64,000 nt of DNA. Origin: Minisyncoccota bacterium. GTDB taxonomy: Bacteria > Patescibacteriota > Minisyncoccia > Phycocordibacterales > UBA1006. The number at the start of each line of letters is the position of its first letter. Positions within the stretch are counted from its first letter, which is position 1. The stretch lies in contig JAJOIF010000004.1 in NCBI GenBank assembly GCA_021209525.1, forward strand, positions 35,730 to 99,729. Direction: 5' to 3'. The translations under genes were made by a program, and so were the position numbers. Below the pieces are notes generated by a model. The model saw only the letters and a program-made list of their open reading frames with translations. It was not told the origin of the DNA and did not search any database. Below, piece by piece: positions 18,078 to 37,655 of this stretch.

Positions 18078-21000
18078 TCATACACATATCCAAAATTTTG
18101 AGGTTTTTGATTCGATCAAGCCTTCATCATACGGCTCAGGTAGTTCATCATATAAAACATCTTTGATGGTTACTAAAACTTTTGCTCTGCCTTGTTGAGT
18201 TTTTCTCCAATCCAAAACAAATGCTGTTTGCTTTAGTGTTTTAAGTAACTCTTTTGCAACTTTTTTAATTTCCTTGATTTCATTTTCTTTCAAGTCTTCT
18301 TTGTAAAGCAAATCAAAAATCGCAAGCTCTTCTTCGATTAACTCTTCTCTCACTCCTCTTTTTTCCTCATCATTCAAAGATTCAGCAAATTTCATCAAAG
18401 CCTCAAAAAACTCTTCAATATTTTTTGAGCCAGAATTATATTCTGAAAGTAATTTTTCAAATTGCTCTACTAGTTTTTGTCTAGTCGGGTTCAACCTCAC
18501 CAATTCTTCAAGTTTTTCTTTCAAGGACTGCTTCAATTTTTCTGCTTCTTTTCTTTTATTTTTCTCAAAATACTTTCGCAATTTTTCAAAATCAATCTTA
18601 CTCAAATCATATGGTTTGTAATCTTCAGAAATCACATACCCTTCAGCAGTAATCGCATTATCAAGAAGCTCTTCAATAGCATCTGCAACGTCTTCTACAT
18701 TCACATCTTTTCGAGTCAGAATTCGCACCCTCTCTGCTAAAACTCGATACAATTTAACCACATTGAAAAATTCACTCGCGCTTGGGTCTGGCATAATAGC
18801 CCCCAAAAGACTCGTCGCACGATTACTCATCGTCAAAAATTCGTTCTTTGATTCTTCATCGGTCAAAATAGCATCAACTGCATTTTCTATTAAAGCCAAT
18901 TTTTCAAAATCTACTGCTTCACCAATTTGCACAATATTGATTCCATATTCACTACAATATTTATCAAGCTCGCCCAAAACTCCTCGTAATTCATTTACCA
19001 GTTCTGTTTTTGGTTTTATAGGCTTTGCATCTTCATCACCTCGCGCTCCATAAATAGCCAATGCTTTTTTCAGACTTCGAAATACTCCGATATAGTCCAC
19101 AATCAATCCATTTGTTTTTGCGCCCCACACACGGTTTGCACGAGCAATGGTTTGCATCAGAGTATGATTTTTCATTGGCTTGTCCAAATACACCGTCGAA
19201 ATAATCGGAGCATCAAATCCAGTCAGCCACATATTACACACAATCACAATTTTCAAAGGATCATTTACATCTTTAAATTTTTTTTCCAAATCCTCATTGA
19301 TCATTCTTCGGCGATGAGTTTCTATATCAAGCCCAAGCTTTCGGAAATCATCCACTTCGTTTTGAGTCGAACTCATCACCATCGCAATATCAGGACAGTT
19401 TGGCTGCGTTTTCATTTTGTTATACATTTTCACCGCAGTTGGTCGATCTATCGCCACAAACAACGCCTTACCATCATTCCCTTGGCTGTTAAAATGTTCA
19501 ATCACATCACGGGCAATAGTGTTCAATCGTTCTTCTCTCGTGATCAAATGATATTCAGTATTAAATTCTCGTTCAAGCTTTTTCTCTTGATCATCATCAA
19601 GCTCAAAAGTTTCAAGCACTGTTCCCAAATCCTGCCCTAAACTCTCCAAATCAATCTGCAGCTCTGGAATACGGTTATCGTAATACAAAGGCACTGTTGC
19701 CTTGTCATCCACAGACTGCTTAAAATCATAAATACTGACATAATCTCCAAAAGTGCTTTTGGTTTGTTCTTCTTCGCCAGAAATAAGCGGTGTTCCGGTA
19801 AAACCAATAAATGAAGCATTCGGTAAAGCCCGACGCATATTGAGCGCCAAAGTGTCATACTGACTTCTGTGTGCTTCGTCAGTCATCGCGATAATATCGC
19901 TTCGCTCTGAAAGTACAGGAAATTCCGTCTCGCCTTCTTGCAATTGGAATTTGTGAATCAAGGTGAAAATATTGCGATGGTCTTCGGTTAAAAGTTCGCG
20001 AAGTTTTTGCACACTGCTTGCACGTACCATTTCTTCTGGTTCAAGCACTGCACCCACACCGGCAAAATTTGCATAAATCTGCTTGTCGAGTTCCTGCCTG
20101 TCTGTTACCACAAGAAAAGTATAATTCCCTTCATATTTTCGCAAAATCTTTTGAGCGAAAAATACCATAGAATAACTTTTTCCTCCTCCTTGTGTATGCC
20201 AAAAGACCCCAATTCGCCCATTGTTTTCTTCTCGCTTTTCAAAAGATTTAATCGCATTATTTACTCCCAAATACTGATGATTTTTCCCAATCAATTTTAT
20301 CATCCCTTTGTTTGTATCTTGAAACAATACAAAGTTTTCAATAATATCAAGTAAACGCGTTTTGTCGCACATACCACGAAGCAAGGTTTCCAAATCCACC
20401 CTTCCTTTTTCTTCTTCATCACTAATTCTTTTCCAATCAGAAAAATGTTCAAATCCGCTCGTAATAGAACCCATCTTTGCATCAAGTCCGTTTGAAATAA
20501 TCAAAAGCTGGTTATACCAAAACATCTGCGGAATTGTGTCTTTATAGTCTCGAATATTACCATCAAAGGCATCTCGCAAGTTTTTGTGCGCAGCCTTAAG
20601 CTCGATAAACACCAAAGGCAAACCATTCACAAACCCCACCAAGTCCGCTCGGCGTTTATACATATCACCCAAGATCCACATTTGCGATACCAAAGTAAAA
20701 TGATTGTTCTCTGGATTATCAAAATCAATCACACGCACCGTTTCCACATCACGAGTTCCGTCACCGCTCACCACATCCACCTTGACCCCGTTTTTCAAAA
20801 GCTCATAGATTTCTTTATTCGCTTTGACCATACTCATTTTTGAGCGGTCTTTGGTGATTTCTTCTATTGCATCATCAATGGCACTTTTTGCAATGCTTGA
20901 ATTCAATTTCTCCAAAGTAGTCCGAAGACGAGAAACCAAGACAACCTGACCCTGATGTTCTCGCCCAAGCTTTGCATCACCTTCATCAGTATAGGCATTT

Positions 21001-21092
21001 ACAAAATCCATTTCGCCGTCGGTACCCCAAAGCTCCGACAAAAGCCGGATTACGGGTTGCTCTATGAGATTGTCTTCGTTGAAGGGGTTCAT
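18078..21092 (-). CDS. hsdR: Type I restriction enzyme R subunit
   Basis: 1004 aa. SF2 helicase motifs including MTDEAHRSQY (DEAH), GGGKSY, and a C-terminal coiled-coil. Confidence 0.9.
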   Translation of the reverse strand: MNPFNEDNLIEQPVIRLLSELWGTDGEMDFVNAYTDEGDAKLGREHQGQVVLVSRLRTTLEKLNSSIAKSAIDDAIEEITKDRSKMSMVKANKEIYELLKNGVKVDVVSGDGTRDVETVRVIDFDNPENNHFTLVSQMWILGDMYKRRADLVGFVNGLPLVFIELKAAHKNLRDAFDGNIRDYKDTIPQMFWYNQLLIISNGLDAKMGSITSGFEHFSDWKRISDEEEKGRVDLETLLRGMCDKTRLLDIIENFVLFQDTNKGMIKLIGKNHQYLGVNNAIKSFEKREENNGRIGVFWHTQGGGKSYSMVFFAQKILRKYEGNYTFLVVTDRQELDKQIYANFAGVGAVLEPEEMVRASSVQKLRELLTEDHRNIFTLIHKFQLQEGETEFPVLSERSDIIAMTDEAHRSQYDTLALNMRRALPNASFIGFTGTPLISGEEEQTKSTFGDYVSIYDFKQSVDDKATVPLYYDNRIPELQIDLESLGQDLGTVLETFELDDDQEKKLEREFNTEYHLITREERLNTIARDVIEHFNSQGNDGKALFVAIDRPTAVKMYNKMKTQPNCPDIAMVMSSTQNEVDDFRKLGLDIETHRRRMINEDLEKKFKDVNDPLKIVIVCNMWLTGFDAPIISTVYLDKPMKNHTLMQTIARANRVWGAKTNGLIVDYIGVFRSLKKALAIYGARGDEDAKPIKPKTELVNELRGVLGELDKYCSEYGINIVQIGEAVDFEKLALIENAVDAILTDEESKNEFLTMSNRATSLLGAIMPDPSASEFFNVVKLYRVLAERVRILTRKDVNVEDVADAIEELLDNAITAEGYVISEDYKPYDLSKIDFEKLRKYFEKNKRKEAEKLKQSLKEKLEELVRLNPTRQKLVEQFEKLLSEYNSGSKNIEEFFEALMKFAESLNDEEKRGVREELIEEELAIFDLLYKEDLKENEIKEIKKVAKELLKTLKQTAFVLDWRKTQQGRAKVLVTIKDVLYDELPEPYDEGLIESKTSKFWICV

Positions 21093-21105: not shown

Positions 21106-22209
21106 TCAATTTATTAAATTATTTAAAGCGTTTTCAGCTCTCTCTATTAAATCATCGTAAGTTAAAACTTCAACCCAATGAAAATAAGAAAGAAGCCTTC
21201 TTAAGTTTTTTGGTTCTGCAGATATAGTTTGAGAAGTACTATTTTTTACCAATTCTTTACCGCGTCTTCCTATAAGTAAAATACCTTTTGGTTTATAGTA
21301 TTTCCCATATCTATCTTCAAGTATTTCGTGACCTGTTTCATCATCTCTTTCATGAGAATATTCACTATAGTAATATTCCATATAACCTGTTAATTGACCA
21401 AGAGATTCTGCTAATTTAGGTGAAATATATTGTCTTTCTCTATCATCAGCTCTTAGTAATTCTTCTGAAGGTAGTTTTACTTCTAAAATATCTGATAATC
21501 CATCTATTCTTAAAAGCCTACCATCAGGATGACCACTAAAACCTGCATCTCTAAAATCTAAATTCTTATATTCAGGACCAAAAATCCATGGATTATTTTT
21601 TAAGAAATTTTGAATATCTGAAACCTCTTTTACGTTTGGATCTTCTATGAGTTTTTTAAATTCTTTTATTTTTTCTTGCTTCTCCTGAATTTTATTTTTT
21701 GTTAAACCTTTTTTTATTAAATCAGGAACATCTAAATCAGAGGTTAAGTAGCCATCTTCAAAAAGTTTTATAAGAGTTTCTTTTCCTTTCTCATCACTAA
21801 CAAGAGTTTTTAATTTTTTATCTAAATCTTCGTCTAGCTCTAAATTATCTTCAAAAGAAAGCTTGCCAGCAGAAACAGAAGAAAGATTTGCAGAAGTAAT
21901 AAATTTCAAAAAATTTGTTAAAGTTATTAAATTTTTTGTATCAAGTCTCACTTCAGAAGCGGGTACAAGTTTACCAGCTTTAATTTCAAATTTTTGTATT
22001 TTTAATTCAACAACTTGGTCCTTCTGACTTATAAAAGTTGCTTTAATTTGAGTTCTACCTGTCTCGTAAATAATCTCCTCTTTGCTCTGAAAATCATCTG
22101 AAACAACAGAGAGTATTTTTCCATTAGGAAAATCCGAAGTATATATTTTATCTTCATGTTTATTTGAAACATAATCTTCTTCTGTCGGATCGTAATTACT
22201 TAAGCCCAT
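21106..22209 (-). CDS. Hypothetical protein with a PD-(D/E)xK-like nuclease signature, embedded between hsdS and hsdR (possible Shedu/DUF4263-like defence gene)
   Basis: GHPDGRLLRIDGLSDILEVKLPSEE carries a PD...(D/E)xK arrangement. Tight coupling to hsdS stop and hsdR start. Confidence 0.4.
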   Translation of the reverse strand: MGLSNYDPTEEDYVSNKHEDKIYTSDFPNGKILSVVSDDFQSKEEIIYETGRTQIKATFISQKDQVVELKIQKFEIKAGKLVPASEVRLDTKNLITLTNFLKFITSANLSSVSAGKLSFEDNLELDEDLDKKLKTLVSDEKGKETLIKLFEDGYLTSDLDVPDLIKKGLTKNKIQEKQEKIKEFKKLIEDPNVKEVSDIQNFLKNNPWIFGPEYKNLDFRDAGFSGHPDGRLLRIDGLSDILEVKLPSEELLRADDRERQYISPKLAESLGQLTGYMEYYYSEYSHERDDETGHEILEDRYGKYYKPKGILLIGRRGKELVKNSTSQTISAEPKNLRRLLSYFHWVEVLTYDDLIERAENALNNLIN

Positions 22210-22213
22210 AATT

Positions 22214-23383
22214 TTATTTCACCTCAACTCTCCCGCCGACTAACTGCGGAATGAGGATGTCTCTTGTTTTTTGTAAATTTTGGTTTTGTTTTTCAAGATT
22301 ATATTTTTCAATCATCATCTCTTTTACATGTTCACCAAATTTTTCACACAAATCCACTGGTGGTAAATAAACTTTTTTTGCTGAAAATTCTGGCCAATGA
22401 CCCTTGTAGTCGTTGAAATAAATTAAATCTTTTGTTGCAAAATGTAACCAAAAAATATTTCTATAATTTTCTTTGCTAGGATAAAACGGCAAGACATTTT
22501 GAATAGCTGAAAACGGAAACATAATCAAATTTTGATAACATGTGTGATTTGCAAAAACAATAACAGGATTTTCTGTACTTGCATTTATACCTGGCTCATC
22601 ATTATGATAACCAATCACACCACTTTTCCCTTGATCTAAAATAGGAACATTTCCAATTGGTAAAGCTGTTTTATTGTCGTATTTTTTACCAACCGAAACT
22701 CTTTCAATCAAATCCTCAACTTTCTTCACCTCCCACCCATTAGGTAATCCATCTTTTACCGGTCTTACAAACCATTCTTTGTAGAGGGTTTGAGCGAGGG
22801 TTTCGAGGGTTTTTATTTTCTTTTGATTCACCTCAATCAAATCATCATACGCCGAAAGCACCTCCGCAATTTTCTTTTGTTCTTTATATTCTGGAACCAA
22901 AAAATCAATAGAAAGCATTTTTTCAAGACTCAAGTTATCTTGAGCAGCACCACTTGAAATAGATTGAAAATCTTTTTTAAACAAATCGAGCAAATATTTT
23001 ACAAATCTTACACCAGAAACATTTTCATAAGACCTAAATCCAACAACACTATCGGGAAAACATGCTGGTATTTTTAGAATAGCACTCTCAGAAATATTCG
23101 CCGCAATTGTAATACAAAGAGTATCAGGTTCCCAAAGTTTACTTTGAGCGAGTCCTTTTTCGTTATATGTTTGGGAATATTCTGAAATATAACAGTTAGC
23201 AGATTTTATATCTGAAGTTTGAATAAAAGGATATTCACCTCCATATAGACTTGAATCATTTCTTGGACGATGACGAGAGCGACCTCTATTTAATTCACCT
23301 AAATCGGTCAACCTCACCCTCTTCCACTCCGCCTTGCGAGTTTTCTCCCCACTATTCTTTTGTGTTGTTTGTGTTTTATTCAT
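22214..23383 (-). CDS. hsdS: Type I restriction-modification specificity subunit
   Basis: 389 aa with two target-recognition-domain halves and central/distal conserved repeats. Confidence 0.85.
   Translation of the reverse strand: MNKTQTTQKNSGEKTRKAEWKRVRLTDLGELNRGRSRHRPRNDSSLYGGEYPFIQTSDIKSANCYISEYSQTYNEKGLAQSKLWEPDTLCITIAANISESAILKIPACFPDSVVGFRSYENVSGVRFVKYLLDLFKKDFQSISSGAAQDNLSLEKMLSIDFLVPEYKEQKKIAEVLSAYDDLIEVNQKKIKTLETLAQTLYKEWFVRPVKDGLPNGWEVKKVEDLIERVSVGKKYDNKTALPIGNVPILDQGKSGVIGYHNDEPGINASTENPVIVFANHTCYQNLIMFPFSAIQNVLPFYPSKENYRNIFWLHFATKDLIYFNDYKGHWPEFSAKKVYLPPVDLCEKFGEHVKEMMIEKYNLEKQNQNLQKTRDILIPQLVGGRVEVK
23309..23383. repeat. 75-bp direct repeat, copy A (authentic hsdS 5' end)
   Basis: ~90% identical to 24201-24273. 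Confidence 0.8.
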
Positions 23384-23455
23384 AAATTCTTGTTTGTGGA
23401 TAACTATTTACATTTTTGACCATTTTTGATATATTGTAAATGTAGGTTTTTCCTA

Positions 23456-24166
23456 CTAATCACGCGGTCCCGCTTTTGCGGGATTTTCGCTTTTTGGCTC
23501 GTAATTTCTTTTTCCTGTATAGAGTCGCCCAAAATCAAAATATTTATCTTTAATTTTATGCAGTTCTTCTGCGACTTGATTTCTCACTCCACAAATCCCA
23601 ATCTTTTTATTTTCAATTTTCAATCTTTGTAAAGGACCCTGCATATCAGAATCCCCAGAAAACAAAATAACTGCAGAAAACTTTTTTGCATCATCTAATA
23701 TGTCCATAGTCATCTCTACATCAAAATTACATTTTGGTTCTTCTATTAAAATACCTGGTTTATGTAATTCGTCTACAAGTTCTTCAATTTTACTTTTTAC
23801 ACCATCATCAAAAAGAGTCATAGTTTTACGCTGAAAAAACATTCCTTCTTTTATTGTCTTGGGAATATACTTCATTGGTTTTGTTTTTAGGATTGCACCA
23901 GTTTTTAAAATTCTTTTATGAAAAGCTTTTGAGTTTTTCAAATCTCTGGTATTTAAACCATAGTAAACTTTTATTTCTTGAATATTTTTATATGTTTTTA
24001 GTTGTTCTATCAAGTCTTCTATTCTAAATTTCCAACCCAAAACATCTTGCCAGTGGAACATATTTGTTAAATCCAAATACACAAAAACCACAGGCTCTTT
24101 TTCTAACCATTCTAGATAGTCTTCTCTTACCATAATTTTATTTTTAATATCCTGTGGTATTTCCAT
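23456..24166 (-). CDS. NYN-domain (LabA-like PIN-fold) nuclease
   Basis: VFVYLDLTNM... and AVILFSGDSDMQGPLQRLKIENKKIGICGV match the NYN/LabA fold. Confidence 0.65.
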   Translation of the reverse strand: MEIPQDIKNKIMVREDYLEWLEKEPVVFVYLDLTNMFHWQDVLGWKFRIEDLIEQLKTYKNIQEIKVYYGLNTRDLKNSKAFHKRILKTGAILKTKPMKYIPKTIKEGMFFQRKTMTLFDDGVKSKIEELVDELHKPGILIEEPKCNFDVEMTMDILDDAKKFSAVILFSGDSDMQGPLQRLKIENKKIGICGVRNQVAEELHKIKDKYFDFGRLYTGKRNYEPKSENPAKAGPRD

Positions 24167-24167
24167 A

Positions 24168-24272
24168 TTATTTTCTAAAATTAAATTTAAGTAAAATGCC
24201 CAACTTCACCCTTTTCCACTTTGCCTTGCGAGTTTTCTCCCCACTATTCTTTTGTGTCGTTTGTGTAGTCAT
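24168..24272 (-). pseudogene. Truncated duplicate of the hsdS 5' end (34 codons, MTTQTTQKNSGEKTRKAKWKRVKL... then stop) immediately upstream of the NYN gene
   Basis: Reverse complement of 24201-24272 encodes MTTQTTQKNSGEKTRKAKWKRV; the hsdS N-terminus is MNKTQTTQKNSGEKTRKAEWKRV. Its stop is 1 nt before the NYN ATG. Confidence 0.7.
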
Positions 24273-24273
24273 G
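24201..24273. repeat. 75-bp direct repeat, copy B
   Basis: caacttcacccttttccactttgccttgcgagttttctccccactattcttttgtgtcgtttgtgtagtcatg matches copy A. Confidence 0.8.
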
Positions 24274-24276
24274 TAT

Positions 24277-25746
24277 TTATAGTAATAACAAATAATCTAA
24301 AGGAATCTTCACTATACTATCCTCTGATAATTCTAAAGAATCACTACCAAAAACAATTCCATACTTTGCTCGACCTTTTGTTTTTTTCATAGTTGTTTGA
24401 ACTTGGTTTATTTCATTCTTTGAAAAACCAATTTCAAATACAATTTCTGTATTGTCTTTAAATCGAACAATAAAGTCCGCTCCGCCTGACCCATAATCAT
24501 AGTATGCGTCTACTTGTCCATAGAGTTCTTTTGAAAATAGTAAAGCCAAATAATCTTCAAGAATTTTTCCTTTTATATCAACACCTATTACACCACTCAA
24601 AAGACCTATTCTAATATTAGGACTCATAAAGAGGTATTTCCCACTTTTTTTTACTTGCTTATATGGTTGTCCGTATGCTTTTAATTCATAAAGAATTTCA
24701 GCATCAGTGAGAGCGGATAGAATTTTATTCAAAGTTAACGGAGCCAAATCTATTGTTTCCGATAGTTTTTTTATACTTATCTCATCACTATTTGCAAGAA
24801 GAAAAAGTACATTTGGGATTTTTACCAGAGTCTCTGCATTAAAGTCATTAAGCAAAATCAAATCTCTTTGCACAATATTAATCAGAATCATTGCTTTTAT
24901 TCTTTCAAGGGCTTCTGACTCGTTAATCATTTCAGCAGAAAATGGAAAAGAGCCTCTATAAAAATAGTCTTTCTTGAGATCGTTTAAATTTGTAATAGTA
25001 GAAAGTTTTTTAATAATTACTGATTGTAGTTGTTTTATTTTATCAAAAACTTCTTGAGCATTTTTGCTATGAAAAATTGCTCGAGCTAGATTTTTAGATA
25101 AATCTTTCTCTGGAAAGATATCTTTATGTAAAGTTAGATACTCACAAAACTTTGTAGGTAAAACCCTTTCTGTTTTTGACCTTCTCACCAAATCTTTGTT
25201 TTTTTGATTAAGGAAAATTGCAGAAGATCCTGTTGCAATAACAAGAATATTTTTGTTTCCTTTTGTTTTATCAAAAAGTAATTTTAAGAACAAATCCCAC
25301 TTTGGATCGTATTGAATTTCATCAATAAGTAAAAGAATTTTCTTTTTATTCTGCAATAAATTTCCCCAAACATTTTTTTCTAAATAATCAATGAATTCAC
25401 CCAAAGAAATATCTTCAGAAAGCAAACGGTCAACAGAAATATAAATCCTTTCATCTACCGTAGTGTTAATATCTTTAGATAAATGGTTTACTGGTTTATT
25501 TATTTCAAAAAAATATAATTGAGATAACAAGGTTGTTTTACCAACACCACGAATACCTGGTAGAATAATTATTTTTTCCTCTTCGGGTAATTCTCCTGAT
25601 ATAAGTTTATTTACATATTTTTGTAACATTAAATAAGAGGAACGAGTTTTTCTCTTTTTCCCTTCAGGTGTTTGAAAGTAGCTTTTTAGATATTGATCTA
25701 AATTTGACTTCCATTCGATATAGAATTTTTCAATATTTTTGTTCAT
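24277..25746 (-). CDS. AAA+ ATPase (archaeal-ATPase/AAA_14 + DUF4143-like) embedded in the type I R-M operon
   Basis: Walker A ILPGIRGVGKTTLLSQL, Walker B LLIDEIQY. Confidence 0.65.
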   Translation of the reverse strand: MNKNIEKFYIEWKSNLDQYLKSYFQTPEGKKRKTRSSYLMLQKYVNKLISGELPEEEKIIILPGIRGVGKTTLLSQLYFFEINKPVNHLSKDINTTVDERIYISVDRLLSEDISLGEFIDYLEKNVWGNLLQNKKKILLLIDEIQYDPKWDLFLKLLFDKTKGNKNILVIATGSSAIFLNQKNKDLVRRSKTERVLPTKFCEYLTLHKDIFPEKDLSKNLARAIFHSKNAQEVFDKIKQLQSVIIKKLSTITNLNDLKKDYFYRGSFPFSAEMINESEALERIKAMILINIVQRDLILLNDFNAETLVKIPNVLFLLANSDEISIKKLSETIDLAPLTLNKILSALTDAEILYELKAYGQPYKQVKKSGKYLFMSPNIRIGLLSGVIGVDIKGKILEDYLALLFSKELYGQVDAYYDYGSGGADFIVRFKDNTEIVFEIGFSKNEINQVQTTMKKTKGRAKYGIVFGSDSLELSEDSIVKIPLDYLLLL

Positions 25747-25979
25747 ATTACAATATAATCATATCACATTTCTGATTATATCCTAGTGTTTTCAAAAAGT
25801 AAATACCCTTTATATCCTTATTTTAAAGAGTTTTTAACACATTTCTGATATTGAGTTTTTGGCATTTCACTTTTTATATGATTTCGTATAAAAAGTGAAA
25901 TACCAAAAATGTGTATAATTATACATAAACTATACACATTTTATACATATTCTGATTTTGAATTGTAAAATAAGGCTTT

Positions 25980-27497
25980 TTACAGTATTTTCTTCAGATT
26001 TTCTTTGATTTTCTTTTCTAAAACCGCTGATTCTTTAAACAGATTCTCTAGGTCATTTGAAAGATTTTTGACTTTTTCTTGGAAATCCTCTTCTGATTCT
26101 TCTATTACTTCAGTACCCACATATCGCCCTGGGTTGAGCGAATATCCAGCTTCAGCAACTTCTTGCAATGTTGCAACCTTACACAGTCCTTTTACATCTT
26201 CGTATTTCCCTGCCCCGCTTTCGCCACGATACGCACGAACAATATTTGCAATTTGATCTATTTGCTCTGGAGTGAATTCTCTATGTGCTCGATCAATTTG
26301 TCGGTAAATATTTCTTGCATCAATAAAAAGAATTTTATCTTTTCTATTAGAATTTATTTTTCCTTTATCAAAAAACCAAAGTGTACAAGAAAGAGTTACG
26401 GTATAGAAAAAATTTCCACCAATCGCAACCATCACATCTACCACACCTGACTCGATCAACTTTTTTCTAATTTCAAGTTCTGTTCCTCGTGCGTCACTCG
26501 CAGAATTTGCCATAACAAATCCTGCGCGTCCGTTTTTGTTTAAGCTTTCATAAAAATGCTCAATCCACAGATAGTTTGCATTGTCCACTGTTGGAATACC
26601 AAGTCTATATCTTTTATCTTCTCGTACTTTTTCCTTGTCTACACCACTGACATTAAACGGAGGATTTGCCATGACAAAATCAAATTGCCCCACACTTTCA
26701 TGCAAATCTTCATAAAAAGTATTTCCTTGTTTTATTTGCCCTTCGAGTCCGTGTACTGCAAGGTTCATTTTACACAAATCGGCACTTATTTCTGATTTTT
26801 CTTGTCCATAAATTGAAATAATATTTTGAGTGCTGTTTTTGTGTTTTTTTACAAATTCCGCGCTCTGTACAAACATGCCACCTGATCCACATGCAGGGTC
26901 ATAGACTTTTCCTTGGTACGGTTCGAGGATTTCTACAATCAATTTTACAAGTGAAGTCGGAGTAAAGAACTCTCCTCCACCCTGACCTTCTGCCATAGCA
27001 AAACTTGAAAGGAAATATTCATAAATTTTTCCAAAAACATCACCTTCTACATCCATCGGGATTTCACTAAAAGTTTTAAGAAGTCCAATCAAAATATGAT
27101 TTTCAAGTTTGTTGTATGTTTTTGGTAATACGCTTTTGAGGTTGGGATTATATTCCTCAATTTCTTTCATCGCATCATTGATTGCTTTTCCTATATTTAC
27201 ACCTTCTTTAAGATTGAGTAAATATGAAAAGCGAGCGATTTCAGGAATATACATAATTCCTTTTGCTTGATATTCTTCAGGACCGATCTTTCTCTCGCGA
27301 ACCAGAGAAGCTCCTGTTTTTTTAGTATTCTTCAGTTCATTATCCGCGTGTTCAAATTTAAATTCAGCAAATCTCAAGAAAATAAGCCCTAGAACTGGTT
27401 GAGAATATTGATGAACGGTAAGACCAGAATTTGCTCGCAATGAGTTTGCAGCATCCCACAATCGCTCTTCTAATTTTTTAAGACTTTCTTTTGCCAT
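25980..27497 (-). CDS. hsdM: Type I restriction-modification N6-adenine DNA methyltransferase subunit
   Basis: 505 aa. HsdM N-terminal domain. Motif I region [10 protein letters not shown]. Motif [11 protein letters not shown]. Confidence 0.9.
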
Positions 27498-27506
27498 ATT
27501 GTTATA

Positions 27507-28181
27507 TTAAAGCATTTTTTCACTTTTTATACTAGTAAAACCTTTTGCTGTAATAACCAAATGATCTTGCACTTGTACGCCCAATAATTCCCCCGCCTTT
27601 ACGAGTCTTTTAGTTACTTCAACATCCTCTATCGAAGGTTCCAATGATCCAGAGGGGTGATTATGAGTAATAATAATACTCGAAGCATGTAATCGTAAAG
27701 CTGGTTCAAAAACTTCTCGTGGGTGCACTAAGGATGCGTCGAGAATTCCGACGGAAACAATGATTCGTTCAATTAATCGACTTTGTGTGTCTAAATAAAA
27801 AACCACTAGATGTTCTTTTTTGGAATCTTTAATGTCAGAACACAACAGCCAAACATCTTTTGGGGATAGTATTTCTACTTGATCATTTTGAGTAAAGCGT
27901 TTTCCTAATTCAATAACTGCAAGTATTTGTAATGATTTCACCTTACCTAATCCTTTAATATCTAAAAAATCATTCAAGGAAATATCTTGGACTCCTTTCT
28001 TTTGAATTACCCGGAGCGCTTTACGAGAAATTTCAAGCACATTAATCCCTTGAATTCCTGAGCTAAGCAAAATAGCAAGCAGCTCATAATCTTGCATTTT
28101 TCGTGTTCCATATTTTTCTAATTTTTCACGAGGTAAATATTTTTCATACATATTTAAATATATTAAAATAATCATGCTCAA
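27507..28181 (-). CDS. RadC-like JAB-domain protein (UPF0758)
   Basis: HhH-like N-terminus and JAMM motif HNHPSGSLEPSIEDVEVT. 10 nt upstream of hsdM. Confidence 0.8.
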   Translation of the reverse strand: MSMIILIYLNMYEKYLPREKLEKYGTRKMQDYELLAILLSSGIQGINVLEISRKALRVIQKKGVQDISLNDFLDIKGLGKVKSLQILAVIELGKRFTQNDQVEILSPKDVWLLCSDIKDSKKEHLVVFYLDTQSRLIERIIVSVGILDASLVHPREVFEPALRLHASSIIITHNHPSGSLEPSIEDVEVTKRLVKAGELLGVQVQDHLVITAKGFTSIKSEKML

Positions 28182-29168: not shown

Positions 29169-29768
29169 TTACTGTAACTTTTTAACTTCAAAAGAGCCTG
29201 TATTATTACGATCTCTACCTGAGTAATATTCTGTTTGAAGCACTCCTTCATCTTCTAGCTTTGCAGATGCTGATCCCTCATGTATATGCATACTTTCAGG
29301 TGCATTATCTTTTGGTTTGTTTCTGTATTGATAATGTATTCTAGCCGTCCCGAATTCATCGACATTCATTGACGCTTCAAAACTGAAAGATTCTGATGTC
29401 TCTGTTTCCAGATAGATAAGTAGATGAGTCCATGTTTGTTTAATACAAAATTTCTTTATCTGTATTGGACCGTTGGCATGATTTGAATGAGATGTTATGG
29501 TTCCAGACCAATTTCCGTCTATGATAGGAGTTTTTATACTAGCAATTTTGCGAATAAAATTATTTCTCCACAAATTAGTTTCGAACCACTTATGTAAAAT
29601 TCCATAAAATCCAATTACCGAAGGAGCTTCTATCCACCACGGTAAGGGAAAGATGTTTTTTGAAAATAGATATAATCCCCATGCAAGCAATATCGATATT
29701 ACTGCAAGATAAAGCGACACATACTTGTGTTCTTCTGAGTTTATTGAATATGGATGTATGTTTTGCAT
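29169..29768 (-). CDS. Predicted membrane effector: two N-terminal TM helices + ~130-aa beta-rich C-terminal domain (Cap15-like architecture)
   Basis: TM1 YVSLYLAVISILLAWGLYLF. Second hydrophobic segment PLPWWIEAPSVIGFYGILHKW. Start is 3 nt after the NTase stop. Confidence 0.45.
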   Translation of the reverse strand: MQNIHPYSINSEEHKYVSLYLAVISILLAWGLYLFSKNIFPLPWWIEAPSVIGFYGILHKWFETNLWRNNFIRKIASIKTPIIDGNWSGTITSHSNHANGPIQIKKFCIKQTWTHLLIYLETETSESFSFEASMNVDEFGTARIHYQYRNKPKDNAPESMHIHEGSASAKLEDEGVLQTEYYSGRDRNNTGSFEVKKLQ

Positions 29769-29770
29769 AG

Positions 29771-30694
29771 TTATTTATTCCAATTATCCCAAAGTTCCAC
29801 AAAAGCACTAATAGTTTTTACTGCATCATCTTGGTTCCACTGCTCCTCACTTTCACCAAATAATTCATGAAAATGGTTTTGACACATACATTGACCAAGA
29901 GCTAATGCAGACCAGAGATGTTTTAATACTGCGTGTACGGTTGTAGAATGATCACCAGTAAAGTGCTCATCAGGGACATTGTAAATTAATGACTGTAAGA
30001 AATATGAAGGCGCTACACCATCGGTAAGTTTACCTGTATCAACAAGATGATTTCTCATATTTTTGAAAATTCGCACTGTTGGCTTAAAACGCCCGCCTGT
30101 ACGAGTATCTGAATTTTTATCAACTCCATTTTGATAGTGGTGCTCTGGATAATTTATGATTCCACGATTTGTTGTGCGATGATAGAATTTAACACCCTCT
30201 TCCGCATTATGACTATTAGTACCATAGAAATAATCATATTTTCGATAATTTATAACAGGAACAATGTCGGCCTTTAGTCTTCCTGAAGAAGGTTTGAGTT
30301 TAATTGACTTATTACCACTTGTATCAACGGAAAGTAATCCATAATATTTAGTCAGAGCAGAAATGACATCTCTGCGTAAATCTTGCCAATCATAAACAGC
30401 ACTACCATATGCCTGATCATGAGCATTTTTCTGATCATAAGGAAGTTCGTGTGCATTATGACCAAATGTAGTTGTTAACTCGACAACTACATCCACATCA
30501 CTATCTGCTCGAATATTTGTATCGTTTTTATATGATCCCTGGAGATAGATTTTTACCGAACCATTACTGATACGATCTTTAAGTGGTGACTGATCATGTG
30601 TCAGTGCTGTTCGAATAGATTCATGAGTTGCTTTTGCTGAAACAGTAGCACCTTGATTCGACCATGTTGTTAGTTGAGAGAGTGGAATTGCCAT
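29771..30694 (-). CDS. Pol-beta-superfamily nucleotidyltransferase of the SMODS/CD-NTase type (candidate CBASS cyclase)
   Basis: GS-x9-DSDVDVVVEL gives GS...DxD. A downstream LKADIVPV supplies the third acidic residue on a beta-strand (the 'DIVP' signature of cGAS/DncV-like enzymes). Confidence 0.6.
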   Translation of the reverse strand: MAIPLSQLTTWSNQGATVSAKATHESIRTALTHDQSPLKDRISNGSVKIYLQGSYKNDTNIRADSDVDVVVELTTTFGHNAHELPYDQKNAHDQAYGSAVYDWQDLRRDVISALTKYYGLLSVDTSGNKSIKLKPSSGRLKADIVPVINYRKYDYFYGTNSHNAEEGVKFYHRTTNRGIINYPEHHYQNGVDKNSDTRTGGRFKPTVRIFKNMRNHLVDTGKLTDGVAPSYFLQSLIYNVPDEHFTGDHSTTVHAVLKHLWSALALGQCMCQNHFHELFGESEEQWNQDDAVKTISAFVELWDNWNK

Positions 30695-33093: not shown

Positions 33094-34371
33094 ATGAATA
33101 AAAAACCTTCATGGAAAACAGGAGTTAGAGAAGTCAAAGATTTACTCCCTTGGAAAGAAAATCCAAGAAAAATCTCACGGGTCGCTATGGAAAAATTAAA
33201 AGAGAAAATCATTCAAAGTGGTTTTCATAGTGTAATTGTTATTGATACAGACAATACGATTATTTCAGGTAATCAAAGAAAAACTGCTTTGATACAGCTC
33301 GGTATTAAACAAGTAAATGTACTGATTCCTGATCGTAAATTGTCTGACGAAGAACGTCGCAAGATTGCGATCGAAAGCAATGTCAACGACGGTGAGTGGG
33401 ATTTCGAAAAGCTTAAGTCTTTTGACCTTGAGCTTTTACAGTTCGCTGGATTCAACGAAAAAGAATTAGTTAAGTTTTGGGACGAAGAAAAGGATACCAA
33501 AGATGACAAATTCGATGTCGATAAAGAGTTAAAGAAAATAAAAACACCGCAAACAAAGCCGGGTGATCTTATCATCATGGGTGGTCATAAGTTGCTATGT
33601 GCTAGCTCAACCGACATGAATGCTGTCACTAAGCTATTCGGAAATGATAAAGCCACGGCTATCTATAATGATCCACCTTTTAATATCGGGCTTTCATACG
33701 ACAAAGGTGTTGGTAATAAATCTAACTACGGAGGTACGTTTGACGACAATCAATCACCTGAAGAATATAAAGAATTTATTCGCAAGGTTCTAAAATCTTC
33801 ACTAACCGTATCTACCAAAGATGTACACGTCGCTTTCTGGTGTGATGAAGCCTGGGTGTGGGTTTTTCAAACGCTCTATATGGAAAATGGAGTTAAGAAC
33901 CGAAGACTTAATGTCTGGGTTAAAAACAATTCATCACCGACACCAACTGTTGCGTTCAATAAGTGTCTTGAGTATTGCGTGTATGGCACAAAAGGATCTC
34001 CATATATTTCAGATCTCGTAAAAAATCTCAACGAAGTACAAAACAAAGACTATGGAACTGGTAACCAACTTCTTGAAGACATCTCAAATATCTGGGCAAC
34101 AAAACGACTACCTTCAAATCAAATGGAACATGCGACGAGTAAAAATCCTGAATTACACCATAAGTTTATTATGCGTTGCACTAAGCCAGGAGACATCATT
34201 TTTGATGCCTTCTCTGGATCTGCTAGCACCATGATCTGTGCAGAACAACTGGGTCGAAAGGTCTATTCCCTAGAGATAGAGCCTGTGTTTTGCGATTTGG
34301 CGATTCGTCGTTATGAAAAATTAACTGGTCATAAGGCACAAGTAATTAAGAACTTCTATGAAAAAGAATAA
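33094..34371 (+). CDS. ParB-like nuclease domain fused to an N6-adenine/N4-cytosine DNA methyltransferase (phage-type orphan MTase)
   Basis: N-terminal ParB/Srx motif region. C-terminal IYNDPPFNIG (DPPF motif IV) and FDAFSGSAST (motif I). Confidence 0.8.
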   Translation: MNKKPSWKTGVREVKDLLPWKENPRKISRVAMEKLKEKIIQSGFHSVIVIDTDNTIISGNQRKTALIQLGIKQVNVLIPDRKLSDEERRKIAIESNVNDGEWDFEKLKSFDLELLQFAGFNEKELVKFWDEEKDTKDDKFDVDKELKKIKTPQTKPGDLIIMGGHKLLCASSTDMNAVTKLFGNDKATAIYNDPPFNIGLSYDKGVGNKSNYGGTFDDNQSPEEYKEFIRKVLKSSLTVSTKDVHVAFWCDEAWVWVFQTLYMENGVKNRRLNVWVKNNSSPTPTVAFNKCLEYCVYGTKGSPYISDLVKNLNEVQNKDYGTGNQLLEDISNIWATKRLPSNQMEHATSKNPELHHKFIMRCTKPGDIIFDAFSGSASTMICAEQLGRKVYSLEIEPVFCDLAIRRYEKLTGHKAQVIKNFYEKE

Positions 34372-36359: not shown

Positions 36360-37655
36360 TTTAGGGGTAAGGACAGAAGTACCAAAACCAAGATTCGGTA
36401 TGTCCTGTATGCTCGAAAATCAACCGAATCAGACGAAAAGCAAGCCTTATCTATTGAATCACAGGTTAAGGAAATGCTTGCCATAGCCGACCGTGACGGC
36501 TTAACAGTTGTTGATATTAGGCGTGAATCTCATTCAGCTAAAGAATCCGGTCAACGACCAGTATTTAGAGAGGTATTAGAGGATGTAAGACGTGGTAGAT
36601 ATAACGGAATACTCACATGGGCACCAGATCGTCTATCAAGAAACGCTGGCGACCTAGGATCAGTGGTTGACCTTATGGACGAGACAAAACTTCTTGAAAT
36701 AAGAACATATGGACAGCATTTTAAAAATTCTCCCAATGAGAAGTTTCTTTTGATGATCCTGTGTTCCCAAGCAAAGCTCGAAAACGATAACAAAAGTATA
36801 AATGTAAAACGAGGACTGCGAACAAGGTGTGAAATGGGATTGCGACCTGGACCTGCTGTAGTCGGATATCTTAATGAAAAGAGAATGGATAAAAAGTGCG
36901 AAGTGGTTATAGATCCTGAACGAGCACCGATAGTTAAACAAATGTTTGAAAAAGTAGCTTATGAAAAATGGTCAGGAAGAAAGCTCTATCACTGGCTTAA
37001 GTTTGATCTTAATTTCAAAACTCGTAGTGGCAACAAAGGTCTTACCCTTAGCAATATTTATCTCATACTTCAAAATCCATTCTATTATGGAGTTTTTGAG
37101 TATCCACGAAAAAGTGGAAATTTCTATACTGGAAGACACAAGCCAATAATCAATAAGGAGCTTTTTGAATTAGTCCAAGAGCAGGTAAAAAGCCAAGTTT
37201 TAAGGACCCAAGAACCAAAAGAGTTTGCTTTTACAAAAATGATGACTTGCGGGCTTTGTGGCTCAGGAATATGTGCTGATGAAAAGTTTAAAAAGTTAAA
37301 AGATGGGTCAGTAAACAGGCATATCTATTATGGATGTACTAGATCTAAAGATAAAAATTGTAAGTGTGGGTATATAAACGAGATTGAATTAATACAGCAA
37401 TTTGAAAAGTTGATTGATCAAGTAAATATCAACGAGATTGGGATGAAAGAGAAAATCAAATATGAAGTTGAGCGAATAAAACGCTTTAATCAATCTGTAT
37501 TAAATACAAAACAGCAGATACAAATAAAAGACGTAGACATCAGAGACTACGCCAAATTTATTTTGAAAGACGGTTTGATTGAGGAGAAACGAGAATTACT
37601 AACTTGTTTTAAGAGTAAGATTTTCCTAAAAGAGAAAAGAATTTTCCTCGACTAG
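36360..37655 (+). CDS. Large serine recombinase (resolvase/invertase catalytic domain + recombinase and zinc-ribbon regions); start codon unresolved
   Basis: Catalytic motif IRYVLYARKSTESDEKQALSIESQ is in frame upstream of the first ATG (36474). No ATG, GTG or TTG lies in frame between the TAA at 36357 and the Ser codon. Confidence 0.75.
   Translation, partial: FRGKDRSTKTKIRYVLYARKSTESDEKQALSIESQVKEMLAIADRDGLTVVDIRRESHSAKESGQRPVFREVLEDVRRGRYNGILTWAPDRLSRNAGDLGSVVDLMDETKLLEIRTYGQHFKNSPNEKFLLMILCSQAKLENDNKSINVKRGLRTRCEMGLRPGPAVVGYLNEKRMDKKCEVVIDPERAPIVKQMFEKVAYEKWSGRKLYHWLKFDLNFKTRSGNKGLTLSNIYLILQNPFYYGVFEYPRKSGNFYTGRHKPIINKELFELVQEQVKSQVLRTQEPKEFAFTKMMTCGLCGSGICADEKFKKLKDGSVNRHIYYGCTRSKDKNCKCGYINEIELIQQFEKLIDQVNINEIGMKEKIKYEVERIKRFNQSVLNTKQQIQIKDVDIRDYAKFILKDGLIEEKRELLTCFKSKIFLKEKRIFLD

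What the first reader, a model, noticed from the sequence alone, without database searches (positions are those of the whole stretch)
23309..24273. 75-bp duplication of the hsdS 5' end flanks the NYN-nuclease gene: footprint of cassette insertion
A ~75-bp sequence covering the hsdS start codon and first ~23 codons is repeated upstream of the NYN gene at ~90% identity. The copy encodes a truncated hsdS N-terminus (MTTQTTQKNSGEKTRKAKWKRVKL...) that stops 1 nt before the NYN ATG.

This direct repeat indicates the NYN gene (and probably the ATPase) entered by recombination at the hsdS 5' region. It may allow excision or exchange of the cassette.
Basis: seen in the sequence. Interest (0 to 1): 0.65.

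Follow-up and report, generated by a model that had tools for sequence, protein, structure and literature searches.

The report
Leftover hsdS start beside inserted NYN cassette
The repeat is real: it is the conserved first ~24 codons of a restriction-enzyme specificity gene (hsdS) present twice, a dead stub and a live copy, bracketing a small, widely travelling nuclease-plus-antisense-RNA gene cassette that was recombined into this defence locus.

Summary
A 66-nt core (61/66 identical, with a 35-nt exact block) occurs twice, 892 nt apart, bracketing the NYN gene. The upstream copy is a 34-codon stub that stops 1 nt before the NYN ATG.

The repeat is the conserved N-terminal leader of this HsdS family. 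Sister loci (L169-L172) have RadC-hsdM-ATPase-hsdS with no NYN, and their hsdS starts exactly where the stub sits. So the stub is the remnant of the resident hsdS, and the ATPase predates the event.

The intact hsdS follows the NYN cassette in the same layout seen in at least 9 hsdM-NYN-hsdS loci elsewhere. The best reading is that an [NYN cassette + hsdS] segment from another type I locus recombined in, with a homologous crossover downstream and a non-homologous joint just after the resident leader. A target duplication at insertion is the main rival.

The cassette is not just a gene. It carries a conserved convergent antisense small RNA (13 base pairs, 100% paired across 65 sequences, compensatory changes, GNRA/UUCG loops) and a DnaA-box-like 9-mer. 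It is spread across candidate-phyla bacteria at a median 76% protein identity, and 15 of 90 copies are bracketed by locus-specific host-derived repeats.

The parts
24201..24266 (-). R1: upstream copy of the conserved HsdS leader (core of the repeat), inside the stub
   Evidence: 93.2% over 74 nt to the hsdS leader of sister locus L166
24168..24272 (-). hsdS' stub ORF (34 codons plus stop). It starts 4 nt after the ATPase stop and stops 1 nt before the NYN ATG. It is the remnant of the resident hsdS in its native position.
   Evidence: L169-L172 have hsdS starting 2 nt after the orthologous ATPase stop, and collinear homology with L169 reaches stub+28
23456..24166 (-). NYN (PIN-like, LabA/DUF88-type) nuclease gene, 236 aa, with catalytic acids conserved
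   Evidence: Pfam PF01936 E=6.7e-16; 647 homologues, top ones 70-77% identical across Patescibacteria; D32, D149/E151 and D172/D174 motifs invariant in 67 cassettes
23407..23435 (+). Promoter of the antisense small RNA (TTTACA-17-TATATT with TG extension), convergent with NYN
   Evidence: best promoter match in the region, 10/12; equivalent TTGAyn-N17-TATACT in other cassettes
23442..23495 (+). Predicted ~55-nt antisense small RNA: a 5' hairpin, a linker, and an intrinsic terminator that overlaps the last ~13 codons of NYN
   Evidence: terminator scan; fold -22.2 kcal/mol, z = -4.7; covariation over 65 sequences; covariance-model hit 23429-23514, 68 bits
23395..23403 (.). TGTGGATAA / TTATCCACA 9-mer (DnaA-box consensus) at the outer edge of the cassette, upstream of the antisense promoter; 11 nt before the hsdS ATG
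   Evidence: exact in 41/67 cassettes and within 1 mismatch in 59/67, 52-75 nt after the stop, both orientations; background 0.0026 per 130 nt; only exact copy in the window
23309..23374 (-). R2: downstream copy of the conserved leader, at the start of the intact hsdS
   Evidence: 90% over 80 nt to the L166 leader
22214..23383 (-). Intact hsdS (389 aa). Only its leader, central region (nt 502-661) and C-terminal region (nt 1096-end) align to sister alleles.
   Evidence: Pfam PF01420; mosaic homology map
24277..25746 (-). AAA_14/DUF4143 ATPase (PADLOC PDC-S01-like): an older guest gene of this locus family, not part of the NYN event
   Evidence: 88% aa identity to the ATPase of NYN-less L169
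25980..27497 (-). hsdM
   Evidence: Pfam N6_Mtase/HsdM_N
21106..22209 (-). Shedu SduA-like nuclease: guest gene in the hsdS-hsdR slot, replaced by KAP NTPase or other genes in sister loci
18078..21092 (-). hsdR
   Evidence: Pfam HSDR_N, SWI2_SNF2, T1RH-like_C

Best explanation
The repeat is two copies of the conserved 5' leader (about the first 24 codons) of this family of HsdS specificity genes. The upstream copy is a dead stub of the hsdS that originally followed the ATPase gene. The downstream copy heads the intact hsdS now in use. Between them lies a compact mobile module made of an NYN nuclease gene, a convergent antisense small RNA and a DnaA-box-like 9-mer.

The most likely history is this. 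A DNA segment carrying [NYN cassette + hsdS] from another type I R-M locus of the common hsdM-NYN-hsdS type recombined into this locus. On the downstream side the crossover used one of the conserved hsdS or hsdR segments. On the upstream side the end was joined non-homologously just after the resident leader. This is homology-facilitated illegitimate recombination, also called displacement. The resident hsdS body was replaced and its leader stayed behind as the stub.

The stub's stop codon lies 1 nt before the NYN ATG, so NYN is probably translated by coupling within the hsdM-ATPase operon. The NYN/antisense-RNA pair most likely works as a type-I-like toxin-antitoxin (addiction or abortive-defence) module.

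Shown: the repeat; the stub's native position; the absence of NYN from sister loci; the cassette's discreteness and spread; the structure and covariation of the antisense RNA; the existence of donor-type loci. Inferred: the direction and mechanism of the recombination event, translational coupling, and the toxin-antitoxin function.
For: (1) Sister loci L169-L172 (HsdM 81%, ATPase 88%, HsdR 82% aa identity) read RadC-hsdM-ATPase-hsdS-guest-hsdR. Their hsdS starts 2 nt after the ATPase stop and there is no NYN. DNA collinearity with the window runs to stub+28.
(2) Against L166 (HsdM and HsdR 95% aa identity), only the HsdS leader, central region and C-terminal region align. Both the stub (93.2% over 74 nt) and the intact hsdS 5' end (90% over 80 nt) match that leader, and the R1/R2 similarity ends exactly at the leader/TRD boundary.
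(3) Each copy carries private differences relative to L166. The stub keeps ACG and ...VKLG as in L166 and L169. The intact gene has ACA...VRLT and a different start (MNKTQ vs MPTQ/MTTQ). Over the 66-nt core, my hand count from the sequences gives 5 differences for R1-R2, 4 for R1-L166 and 3 for R2-L166, so the two copies are no closer to each other than to a foreign allele.
(4) Mismatches between coding repeats fall mostly at third codon positions (18/29 over the window, L103 and L092; binomial p = 0.0014).
(5) Donor-type architecture is common. At least 14 loci have hsdM directly followed by NYN, and 9 of them have hsdS next, with its ATG 7-11 nt after the 9-mer box. The window has box, 11 nt, then the hsdS ATG.
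(6) The cassette is a discrete transferred unit. DNA homology between cassettes in unrelated contexts is confined to the ORF plus about 5-60 nt upstream and 31-72 nt downstream.
(7) 15/90 non-redundant NYN loci have locus-specific flanking direct repeats, against 7/163 control genes (p = 0.002). In several loci weaker homology extends well beyond the core (L045: 448 nt at 81%; also L120, L092, L020), as expected for diverged alleles. Arrays with repeated stubs exist (L025, L020).
(8) Antisense RNA evidence.
(9) Precedent for displacement by homology-facilitated illegitimate recombination leaving remnants: PMC5361080.
Against: No donor locus with this exact leader (MNKTQTTQ...) after an NYN cassette was found, and no intact resident allele that continues like the stub. 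The origin of the stub's 34-nt tail could not be assigned. The numbers behind the two-alleles argument are small: 5 mismatches in the window core, 29 in total. Some other loci have perfect or near-perfect flanking repeats (L056 96/96, L019 80/80, L009 99/102). These are more simply explained by a duplication made at insertion, so a different mechanism may operate in general and possibly here. Homology-facilitated illegitimate recombination is rare where it has been measured (PMC5361080). Nothing about expression or toxicity was tested.
Confidence: 0.6

Rival explanations
1. Target duplication at insertion. The NYN cassette inserted de novo into the 5' end of the resident hsdS by a mechanism that duplicates a long, variable stretch of target (staggered breaks with fill-in, or replication template switching). 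R1 and R2 then diverged from one sequence.
For: 15/90 NYN loci are bracketed by host-derived direct repeats of 20-156 nt with a consistent 0.8-1.2 kb spacing. Some are perfect (L056 96/96; L019 80/80 around a different cassette). Arrays R-cassette-R-cassette-R (L025, L020) are what repeated duplicative insertions at one site would give.
Against: There are no conserved cassette termini and no fixed junctions: R1 ends 5-186 nt before the ATG and R2 starts 0-265 nt after the box. There is no transposase or integrase in the unit. In the window the repeat ends exactly at the conserved-leader boundary. The intact copy has its own native-looking start codon in the standard box-to-ATG layout. Each copy has private differences, including changes in the functional copy. 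Mismatches are biased to third positions. Homology extends at lower identity beyond the core in L045, L120, L092 and L020.
Confidence: 0.25
2. One reading: NYN and the ATPase entered together as one cassette by recombination at the hsdS 5' region.
For: The ATPase and NYN both have lower GC (28.6% and 30.5%) than hsdM and hsdR (35.9% and 38.4%). The hsdM-hsdS slot does hold different guests in sister loci (AAA_21+RloB in L166, DUF3800 in L167).
Against: The ATPase lies outside the repeat. The same ATPase (88% aa identity) occupies the same slot in L169-L172, which lack NYN, and homology continues from it into the stub.
Confidence: 0.04
3. Programmed hsdS variation: the stub is a silent partial hsdS kept for recombinational switching of specificity, as in phase-variable type I systems.
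For: Type I loci with extra partial hsdS copies and repeats are known (PMC7383803, listed). The repeat would allow deletion.
Against: The repeats are direct, not inverted. The stub carries only the leader and no alternative target-recognition domain. No recombinase gene lies adjacent (the nearest, a serine recombinase, is about 12 kb away at 36474-37655). Recombination between the copies would only delete NYN.
Confidence: 0.03
4. Chance similarity or assembly duplication.
For: None beyond the AT-rich background.
Against: The 35-nt exact block occurs twice against 0 in 100 shuffles. The copies differ at 5 sites. Three independent assemblies agree at 100% across all junctions.
Confidence: 0.01

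Closest known systems
Mosaic type I R-M loci with embedded guest genes (for example PIN-like nucleases coupled to hsdM/hsdS/hsdR, PMC5499597 section 17; the 'restriction-linked orf' rlo genes of Campylobacter type I loci, from my own knowledge)
   Same: Guest genes sit between hsdM and hsdS and between hsdS and hsdR and are swapped between otherwise homologous loci. Here these are ATPase, AAA_21+RloB, DUF3800 and NYN in one slot, and Shedu, KAP NTPase and others in the other. A PIN-like nuclease without a protein antitoxin sits inside the operon.
   Different: Here the event left a leader stub that dates and locates the insertion. The guest also brings an antisense RNA gene, which that literature does not describe.
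Displacement arrays formed by homology-facilitated illegitimate recombination (T6SS effector-immunity arrays of Vibrio cholerae, PMC5361080; Rhs C-terminal displacement, cited there)
   Same: Incoming DNA is anchored by a conserved segment on one side and joined illegitimately on the other. A remnant of the displaced gene is retained, and repeated rounds give arrays (L025 and L020).
   Different: In those systems the conserved anchor is the 5' body and the displaced parts are 3' tips plus immunity genes. Here the retained remnant is a 5' leader, and the cargo is an unrelated nuclease/antisense-RNA cassette rather than an alternative tip of the same gene.
Type I toxin-antitoxin modules with a cis-antisense RNA: SymE/SymR (PMC1891008), and the 3'-overlapping convergent pairs of Bacillus such as txpA/RatA (my own knowledge)
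   Same: A nuclease-type toxin candidate is paired with a short, structured, terminator-ended RNA transcribed from the opposite strand and overlapping the mRNA. The module is mobile and associates with R-M systems and defence islands (PMC1891008).
   Different: The toxin candidate is a 236-aa NYN/PIN-like enzyme, not a small peptide or an AbrB-fold protein. The overlap is at the 3' end of the ORF. A DnaA-box-like 9-mer precedes the antisense promoter. Neither toxicity nor antisense control has been shown.
HsdS domain shuffling through conserved regions (established knowledge of type I families)
   Same: Only the N-terminal, central and C-terminal conserved segments align between alleles, and the TRDs are swapped. 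The repeat is one of these recombination-prone conserved segments.
   Different: The outcome here is not a new TRD combination alone. It is a duplicated leader enclosing a foreign cassette.
Transposon target-site duplications and integron gene cassettes
   Same: A single-gene unit bracketed by direct repeats, sometimes in arrays.
   Different: The repeats are 20-156 nt, differ in length and sequence at every locus, and derive from the host. There are no fixed termini, no attC-like shared site, and no transposase or integron integrase.

Membership tests
Type I restriction-modification locus (hsdR/M/S) | HsdM N6-adenine methyltransferase, HsdS with two TRDs and conserved regions, HsdR helicase-nuclease | tested here: met
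   Pfam hits for all three. The leader, central and C-terminal conserved segments of hsdS align to sister alleles.
Displacement / homology-facilitated illegitimate recombination footprint | A remnant of the resident gene is retained at its native position next to the incoming segment | tested here: met
   The stub starts 4 nt after the ATPase stop, as hsdS does in L169-L172. Homology with L169 runs into the stub.
Displacement / homology-facilitated illegitimate recombination footprint | The two copies of the anchor segment derive from different alleles (donor and recipient) | tested here: inconclusive
   Private differences in both copies relative to L166, a different start codon context, and third-position bias all point that way. 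But the window core has only 5 mismatches.
Displacement / homology-facilitated illegitimate recombination footprint | A plausible donor architecture exists | tested here: met
   At least 9 hsdM-NYN-hsdS loci have the hsdS ATG 7-11 nt after the box. The exact donor allele was not found.
Transposable element with target-site duplication | Defined element termini and a fixed-length duplication | tested here: not met
   Junction offsets vary (5-186 nt on the left, 0-265 nt on the right) and repeat length ranges from 20 to 156 nt.
Transposable element with target-site duplication | Element-encoded transposase or recombinase | tested here: not met
   The only ORF is the NYN nuclease. NYN is not a known transposase fold; whether it could act as one is untested.
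Integron gene cassette | A shared attC-type recombination site at cassette boundaries and an IntI integrase | tested here: not met
   The flanking repeats are unrelated between loci. No integron integrase appeared among the eight locus proteins scanned against Pfam or among the precomputed Pfam annotations of the neighbouring genes.
Phase-variable type I system (hsdS shufflon) | Inverted repeats, alternative TRD-bearing partial hsdS copies, and an adjacent recombinase | tested here: not met
   The repeat is direct, the stub has a leader only, and no adjacent recombinase exists.
Type I (antisense-RNA) toxin-antitoxin module | A cis-encoded small RNA overlapping the toxin mRNA, with its own promoter and terminator | tested here: met
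   Promoter and terminator on the opposite strand. 13 pairs, 100% paired in 65 sequences, 5 pairs with compensatory changes, 0/500 shuffles. GNRA/UUCG loops and G-U pairs occur only on the antisense strand. Covariance-model hits occur only at NYN 3' ends. This is predicted, not observed, transcription.
Type I (antisense-RNA) toxin-antitoxin module | The protein is toxic and the RNA represses it | not testable with these tools
   Only indirect evidence: invariant catalytic acids, mobility, frameshifted copies.
NYN / PIN-like nuclease (PF01936, COG1432 LabA-like) | NYN domain with conserved acidic active-site residues | tested here: met
   PF01936 E=6.7e-16 over residues 27-211. The DLTN, NFDVE and SGDSD motifs are invariant.
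Rfam RNA families | Match to any curated family for the antisense RNA region | tested here: not met
   No meaningful hit at E <= 10 over 23250-24350.

The most novel reading that the evidence does not exclude
The NYN gene plus its antisense small RNA and DnaA-box-like 9-mer is one member of an undescribed class of single-toxin/antisense-RNA cassettes in candidate-phyla (Patescibacteria and neighbouring) genomes. Sibling cassettes carrying a MazF-like gene or unrelated ORFs share the box-promoter-sRNA module. These cassettes would spread by a duplicative insertion process that copies 20-156 nt of host sequence at gene ends and builds cassette arrays, with antitoxin-RNA expression tied to DnaA.
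Probability: 0.2. Interest if true: 0.8.

Novelty: new variant of a known kind. Interest (0 to 1): 0.5.

Why it matters
For the locus itself, the stub is a clean molecular fossil. It shows which gene is the newcomer (NYN), which is older (the ATPase), and where the joint lies in a mosaic type I R-M defence locus of an uncultured Patescibacteria genome.

More broadly, the guest is not a lone nuclease. It is a conserved two-part module (NYN enzyme plus convergent structured antisense RNA plus a DnaA-box-like site) found in hundreds of candidate-phyla contigs at about 76% protein identity, often inside type I R-M loci or after radC. That would explain earlier reports of PIN-like nucleases in R-M operons that lack an antitoxin: the antitoxin may be an RNA. 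It would also add a large enzyme toxin to the antisense-RNA class of toxin-antitoxin systems.

The recurrent host-derived flanking repeats and stub arrays give a tractable record of how small defence and addiction genes are stacked into islands in genomes where mobile-element biology is poorly known.

Tried and rejected
- A degenerate DNA pattern for the leader peptide QKNSGEKTRKA found nothing in 185,579 species genomes. This leader is rare and the organism has no close representative there.
- Searching the protein database with the stub failed: the query was too short, and a concatenated stub+leader query found no candidate sharing three words. That cost one of the three searches.
- Exact-protein look-ups of hsdM, NYN, hsdS and the ATPase returned only contigs of the same organism from one study. 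They confirmed the junctions but gave no allelic variation.
- Rfam has no family for the antisense RNA. NCBIfam has none for NYN or the Shedu-like gene.
- I tried to assign the 34-nt stub tail to a donor hsdM 3' end (best 28/500 shuffles, and no better than unrelated contexts), to the intact hsdS (344/500), or to the resident-type TRD start of L169 (24/500). The result is inconclusive.
- Transposon, integron and shufflon readings were considered and rejected on the feature tests listed under membership.
- The 87-nt extent reported by the repeat finder was trimmed to a 66-nt core, because the outer 21 nt are not above chance.
- One Pfam call failed on a wrong strand reference.
Full report
OBSERVATION. 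All genes in this region are on the minus strand. In order of transcription they are:
- radC (27507-28181)
- hsdM (25980-27497)
- an AAA_14/DUF4143 ATPase (24277-25746)
- a 34-codon ORF (24272-24168)
- an NYN-domain gene (24166-23456)
- hsdS (23383-22214)
- a Shedu SduA-like gene (22209-21106)
- hsdR (21092-18078).

The repeat finder reports 23288-23374 vs 24180-24266, 87 nt at 85%. In register, the core 23309-23374 / 24201-24266 is 61/66 identical with a 35-nt exact block. That block occurs exactly twice in the window and never in 100 shuffles. The outer 21 nt are not above chance.

The short ORF reads MTTQTTQKNSGEKTRKAKWKRVKLGILLKFNFRK*. It begins 4 nt after the ATPase stop and ends 1 nt before the NYN ATG. 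The intact HsdS begins MNKTQTTQKNSGEKTRKAEWKRVRLTDLGEL. Contigs from three other sequencing runs of the same study match the window at 100% across every junction. The arrangement is therefore real.

WHAT THE REPEATED SEQUENCE IS. The organism is a Patescibacteria ('Candidatus Pacebacteria') MAG, according to the source name of the identical NYN protein. The locus lies in a low-GC island with a CBASS system and a serine recombinase.

Using HsdM as an anchor, I recovered allelic versions of the locus:
- L166 (HsdM and HsdR 95% aa identity) reads hsdM, AAA_21, RloB, hsdS, a 382-aa gene, hsdR.
- L167 reads radC, hsdM, DUF3800, hsdS, further genes, hsdR.
- L169-L172 read radC, hsdM, the same 489-aa ATPase (88% aa identity), hsdS, KAP NTPase, hsdR.

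At the DNA level, only three hsdS segments align between the window and L166: the leader, a central 160 nt and the last 83 nt. These are the classical conserved regions that flank the two variable target-recognition domains.

L166's leader (MPTQTTQKNNGEKTRKAEWKRVKLG) matches both window copies: 93.2% over 74 nt for the stub and 90% over 80 nt for the intact gene. The repeat is therefore the conserved HsdS leader present twice, and it ends where alleles normally diverge.

WHICH COPY IS RESIDENT. In L169-L172, hsdS starts 2 nt after the ATPase stop. Collinear homology with the window runs from radC through hsdM and the ATPase and 28 nt into the stub. The stub is thus the resident hsdS start in its native position.

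WHAT THE INSERT IS. The NYN protein has 647 database homologues. The best 120 are 69-77% identical and come from many candidate-phyla lineages. I fetched 160 loci.

Between cassettes in unrelated contexts, DNA homology stops about 5-60 nt before the ATG and 31-72 nt after the stop. The 3' part is strikingly conserved. It contains, in order:
- a hairpin within the last codons
- a second hairpin just after the stop
- a GTATAGCA motif and a GTCAA motif
- TTATCCACA or its reverse complement TGTGGATAA.

Read on the strand antisense to NYN, this is the 9-mer box, a sigma-70-type promoter (window: TTTACA-17-TATATT, the best match in the region), a hairpin closed by GNRA or UUCG tetraloops, a linker, and an intrinsic terminator.

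Across 65 sequences, all 840 pair cells form standard pairs. Five pairs show compensatory changes. No shuffle and no slid control approaches the observed values. The G-U pairs exist only on the antisense strand. The window RNA folds at -22.2 kcal/mol, z = -4.7.

A covariance model hits every NYN locus of at least 44% identity, always antisense at the ORF's 3' end. It hits once in the window and nowhere else in 964 kb, apart from one marginal hit. Rfam has no such family.

The 9-mer equals the DnaA-box consensus. It is exact in 41/67 cassettes and within one mismatch in 59/67, at 52-75 nt past the stop, in either orientation. Background is 0.0026 exact matches per 130 nt, and the window's only exact copy is this one.

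The NYN catalytic acids are invariant, and several copies elsewhere are frameshifted. I infer a type-I-like toxin/antisense-antitoxin module. This is inference from architecture. The closest analogues are SymE/SymR, which also associates with R-M systems (PMC1891008), and the 3'-overlapping Bacillus pairs (my own knowledge). PIN-like nucleases inside type I operons 'without antitoxin' have been noted before (PMC5499597).

HOW THE DUPLICATED LEADER AROSE. Two models fit a direct repeat around an insert.

Model A is a duplication of the target made at insertion. Model B is recombination with a donor locus that already had NYN upstream of an hsdS, using a homologous crossover downstream and a non-homologous joint upstream just after the resident leader. 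The result is resident stub, NYN, donor hsdS.

Evidence for B in the window:
(i) The repeat ends at the leader/TRD boundary.
(ii) The intact copy has its own start context (ATG AAT AAA ACA... vs ATG ACT ACA...) located 11 nt after the box. That is the layout of at least 9 hsdM-NYN-hsdS loci, where the hsdS ATG lies 7-11 nt after the box.
(iii) Relative to L166, the stub keeps ACG and VKLG while the intact gene has ACA and VRLT. The three leaders are about equidistant: 5, 4 and 3 differences in 66 nt, by my count.
(iv) Mismatches between coding repeats in the window, L103 and L092 fall mostly at third codon positions (18/29, p = 0.0014). This is expected if both copies diverged as parts of functional genes.

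THE WIDER PATTERN. 15 of 90 non-redundant NYN loci are bracketed by direct repeats of 20-156 nt that differ from locus to locus and derive from the host. They are gene 5' ends, gene 3' ends, promoters or terminators. The figure for control genes is 7 of 163 (p = 0.002).

The positive 'controls' are themselves small guest genes: a second NYN, a SocA/Panacea antitoxin, and a 161-aa ORF behind hsdM with a perfect 80-nt duplication of the hsdM end.

L103 mirrors the window. A 38-codon stub of the downstream gene, 83% identical to the intact copy, stops just before the NYN ATG.

In L025 and L020 the same host segment occurs three times, separating NYN from a MazF-like gene or a DUF3800 gene.

Junctions with the cassette are not fixed. 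In L045, L120, L092 and L020, weaker homology extends beyond the high-identity core, up to 448 nt at 81%. These features fit displacement by one-sided homologous recombination, as proposed for T6SS effector-immunity arrays and Rhs loci (PMC5361080). They fit poorly with a transposon-type target duplication.

However, the perfect repeats in L056, L019 and L009 are more simply explained by a duplication at insertion. I could not find any empty site for those loci. I therefore keep Model A as a serious rival (0.25) to Model B (0.6).

CONSEQUENCES.
- The sense strand has no terminator between NYN and hsdS, so the operon can read through.
- The stub's stop codon 1 nt before the NYN ATG suggests translational coupling. 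The same tight spacing (1-10 nt) to an upstream stop codon is seen in most other cassettes that have an upstream ORF.
- Recombination between the two leader copies (35 nt exact) would delete NYN and recreate an ATPase-hsdS junction like that of L169. This is plausible but untested.

VERDICT. The ATPase part is not. The mechanism is better described as allelic displacement at the conserved HsdS leader than as a fresh duplication.

The event itself is an ordinary kind of mosaicism for type I R-M loci. The unexpected part is the nature of the guest: a conserved NYN plus antisense-RNA plus DnaA-box-like cassette that appears undescribed in Rfam and in the papers I could search, and that recurs with stub-like flanking repeats across candidate-phyla genomes.

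Noticed in passing
window 23395-23403, and 52-75 nt after the NYN stop in L006-L165: A 9-mer identical to the DnaA-box consensus (TTATCCACA/TGTGGATAA) sits at the outer edge of nearly every NYN cassette, just upstream of the antisense promoter, in either orientation (22 vs 19). It is the window's only exact copy. Whether DnaA binds it is unknown.
   Followed up: partly
L025 9276-9393; L019 3527-3680; L015/L098 around 3124: Other small genes (a MazF/PemK-like toxin, an unrelated 161-aa ORF, and one more) end with the same architecture: hairpin/terminator, antisense promoter, 9-mer box. The box-promoter-sRNA module seems to be shared by a wider class of cassettes than NYN.
   Followed up: partly
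L025 7818-9435; L020 7926-9925: Cassette arrays. L025 has GIY-YIG gene end (R), NYN, R, MazF-like gene, R, methyltransferase. L020 has R, NYN, R, DUF3800 gene, R, hydrolase. The same host-derived segment is repeated three times.
   Followed up: partly
window 25856-25909 (hsdM-ATPase intergenic region): A near-perfect 23-bp-stem palindrome (DNA fold -19 kcal/mol, z = -9.2). It is 96% identical over 54 nt in L169, where the surrounding DNA is only about 77% identical. L166 homology also extends through it although a different guest gene follows. It is a candidate operator, terminator or recombination signal at the edge of the guest-gene slot.
   Followed up: partly
window ~17000-37700: A low-GC island (28-38% vs 41-46% in the flanks). 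Besides the type I locus it carries a CBASS-like operon (CD-NTase 29771-30694, Cap15-like 29169-29768), an N6/N4 methyltransferase (33094-34371), a DEAD-like gene, and a serine recombinase at its end (36474-37655). It is probably an integrated defence island.
   Followed up: no
L166, L167, L169-L172 vs window 21106-25746: Both the hsdM-hsdS and hsdS-hsdR slots are guest-gene hot spots. The first holds AAA_14 ATPase, AAA_21+RloB, DUF3800 or NYN. The second holds Shedu, KAP NTPase or unknown genes of 382 aa or 403+148 aa. In the second slot the swap boundaries fall within a few nt of the guest ORF's start and stop, while the flanking hsdS and hsdR ends stay about 90% identical.
   Followed up: partly
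L017, L023, L034, L042, L044, L094, L104, L108, L115: In many genomes the NYN cassette sits 3-4 nt after the radC stop codon. radC also precedes hsdM in the window and its sister loci, so radC looks like a conserved anchor next to a variable defence slot.
   Followed up: no
L009 2554-3258; L050 3999-4717; L051 8000-8713; L056 7940-8648: NYN copies that are frameshifted or truncated while their antisense-RNA module is still detected by the covariance model. This is consistent with decay of a selfish or toxic gene.
   Followed up: no
L001 end (window 24228); L003 (window 24252-23336): Logan assemblies of the same organism break inside the repeat, and NYN appears on its own 917-nt contig. Many NYN homologues in the protein database are on contigs of about 0.9-1.3 kb. 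This may reflect the same repeat-bounded layout elsewhere, or simply the short median contig length.
   Followed up: no
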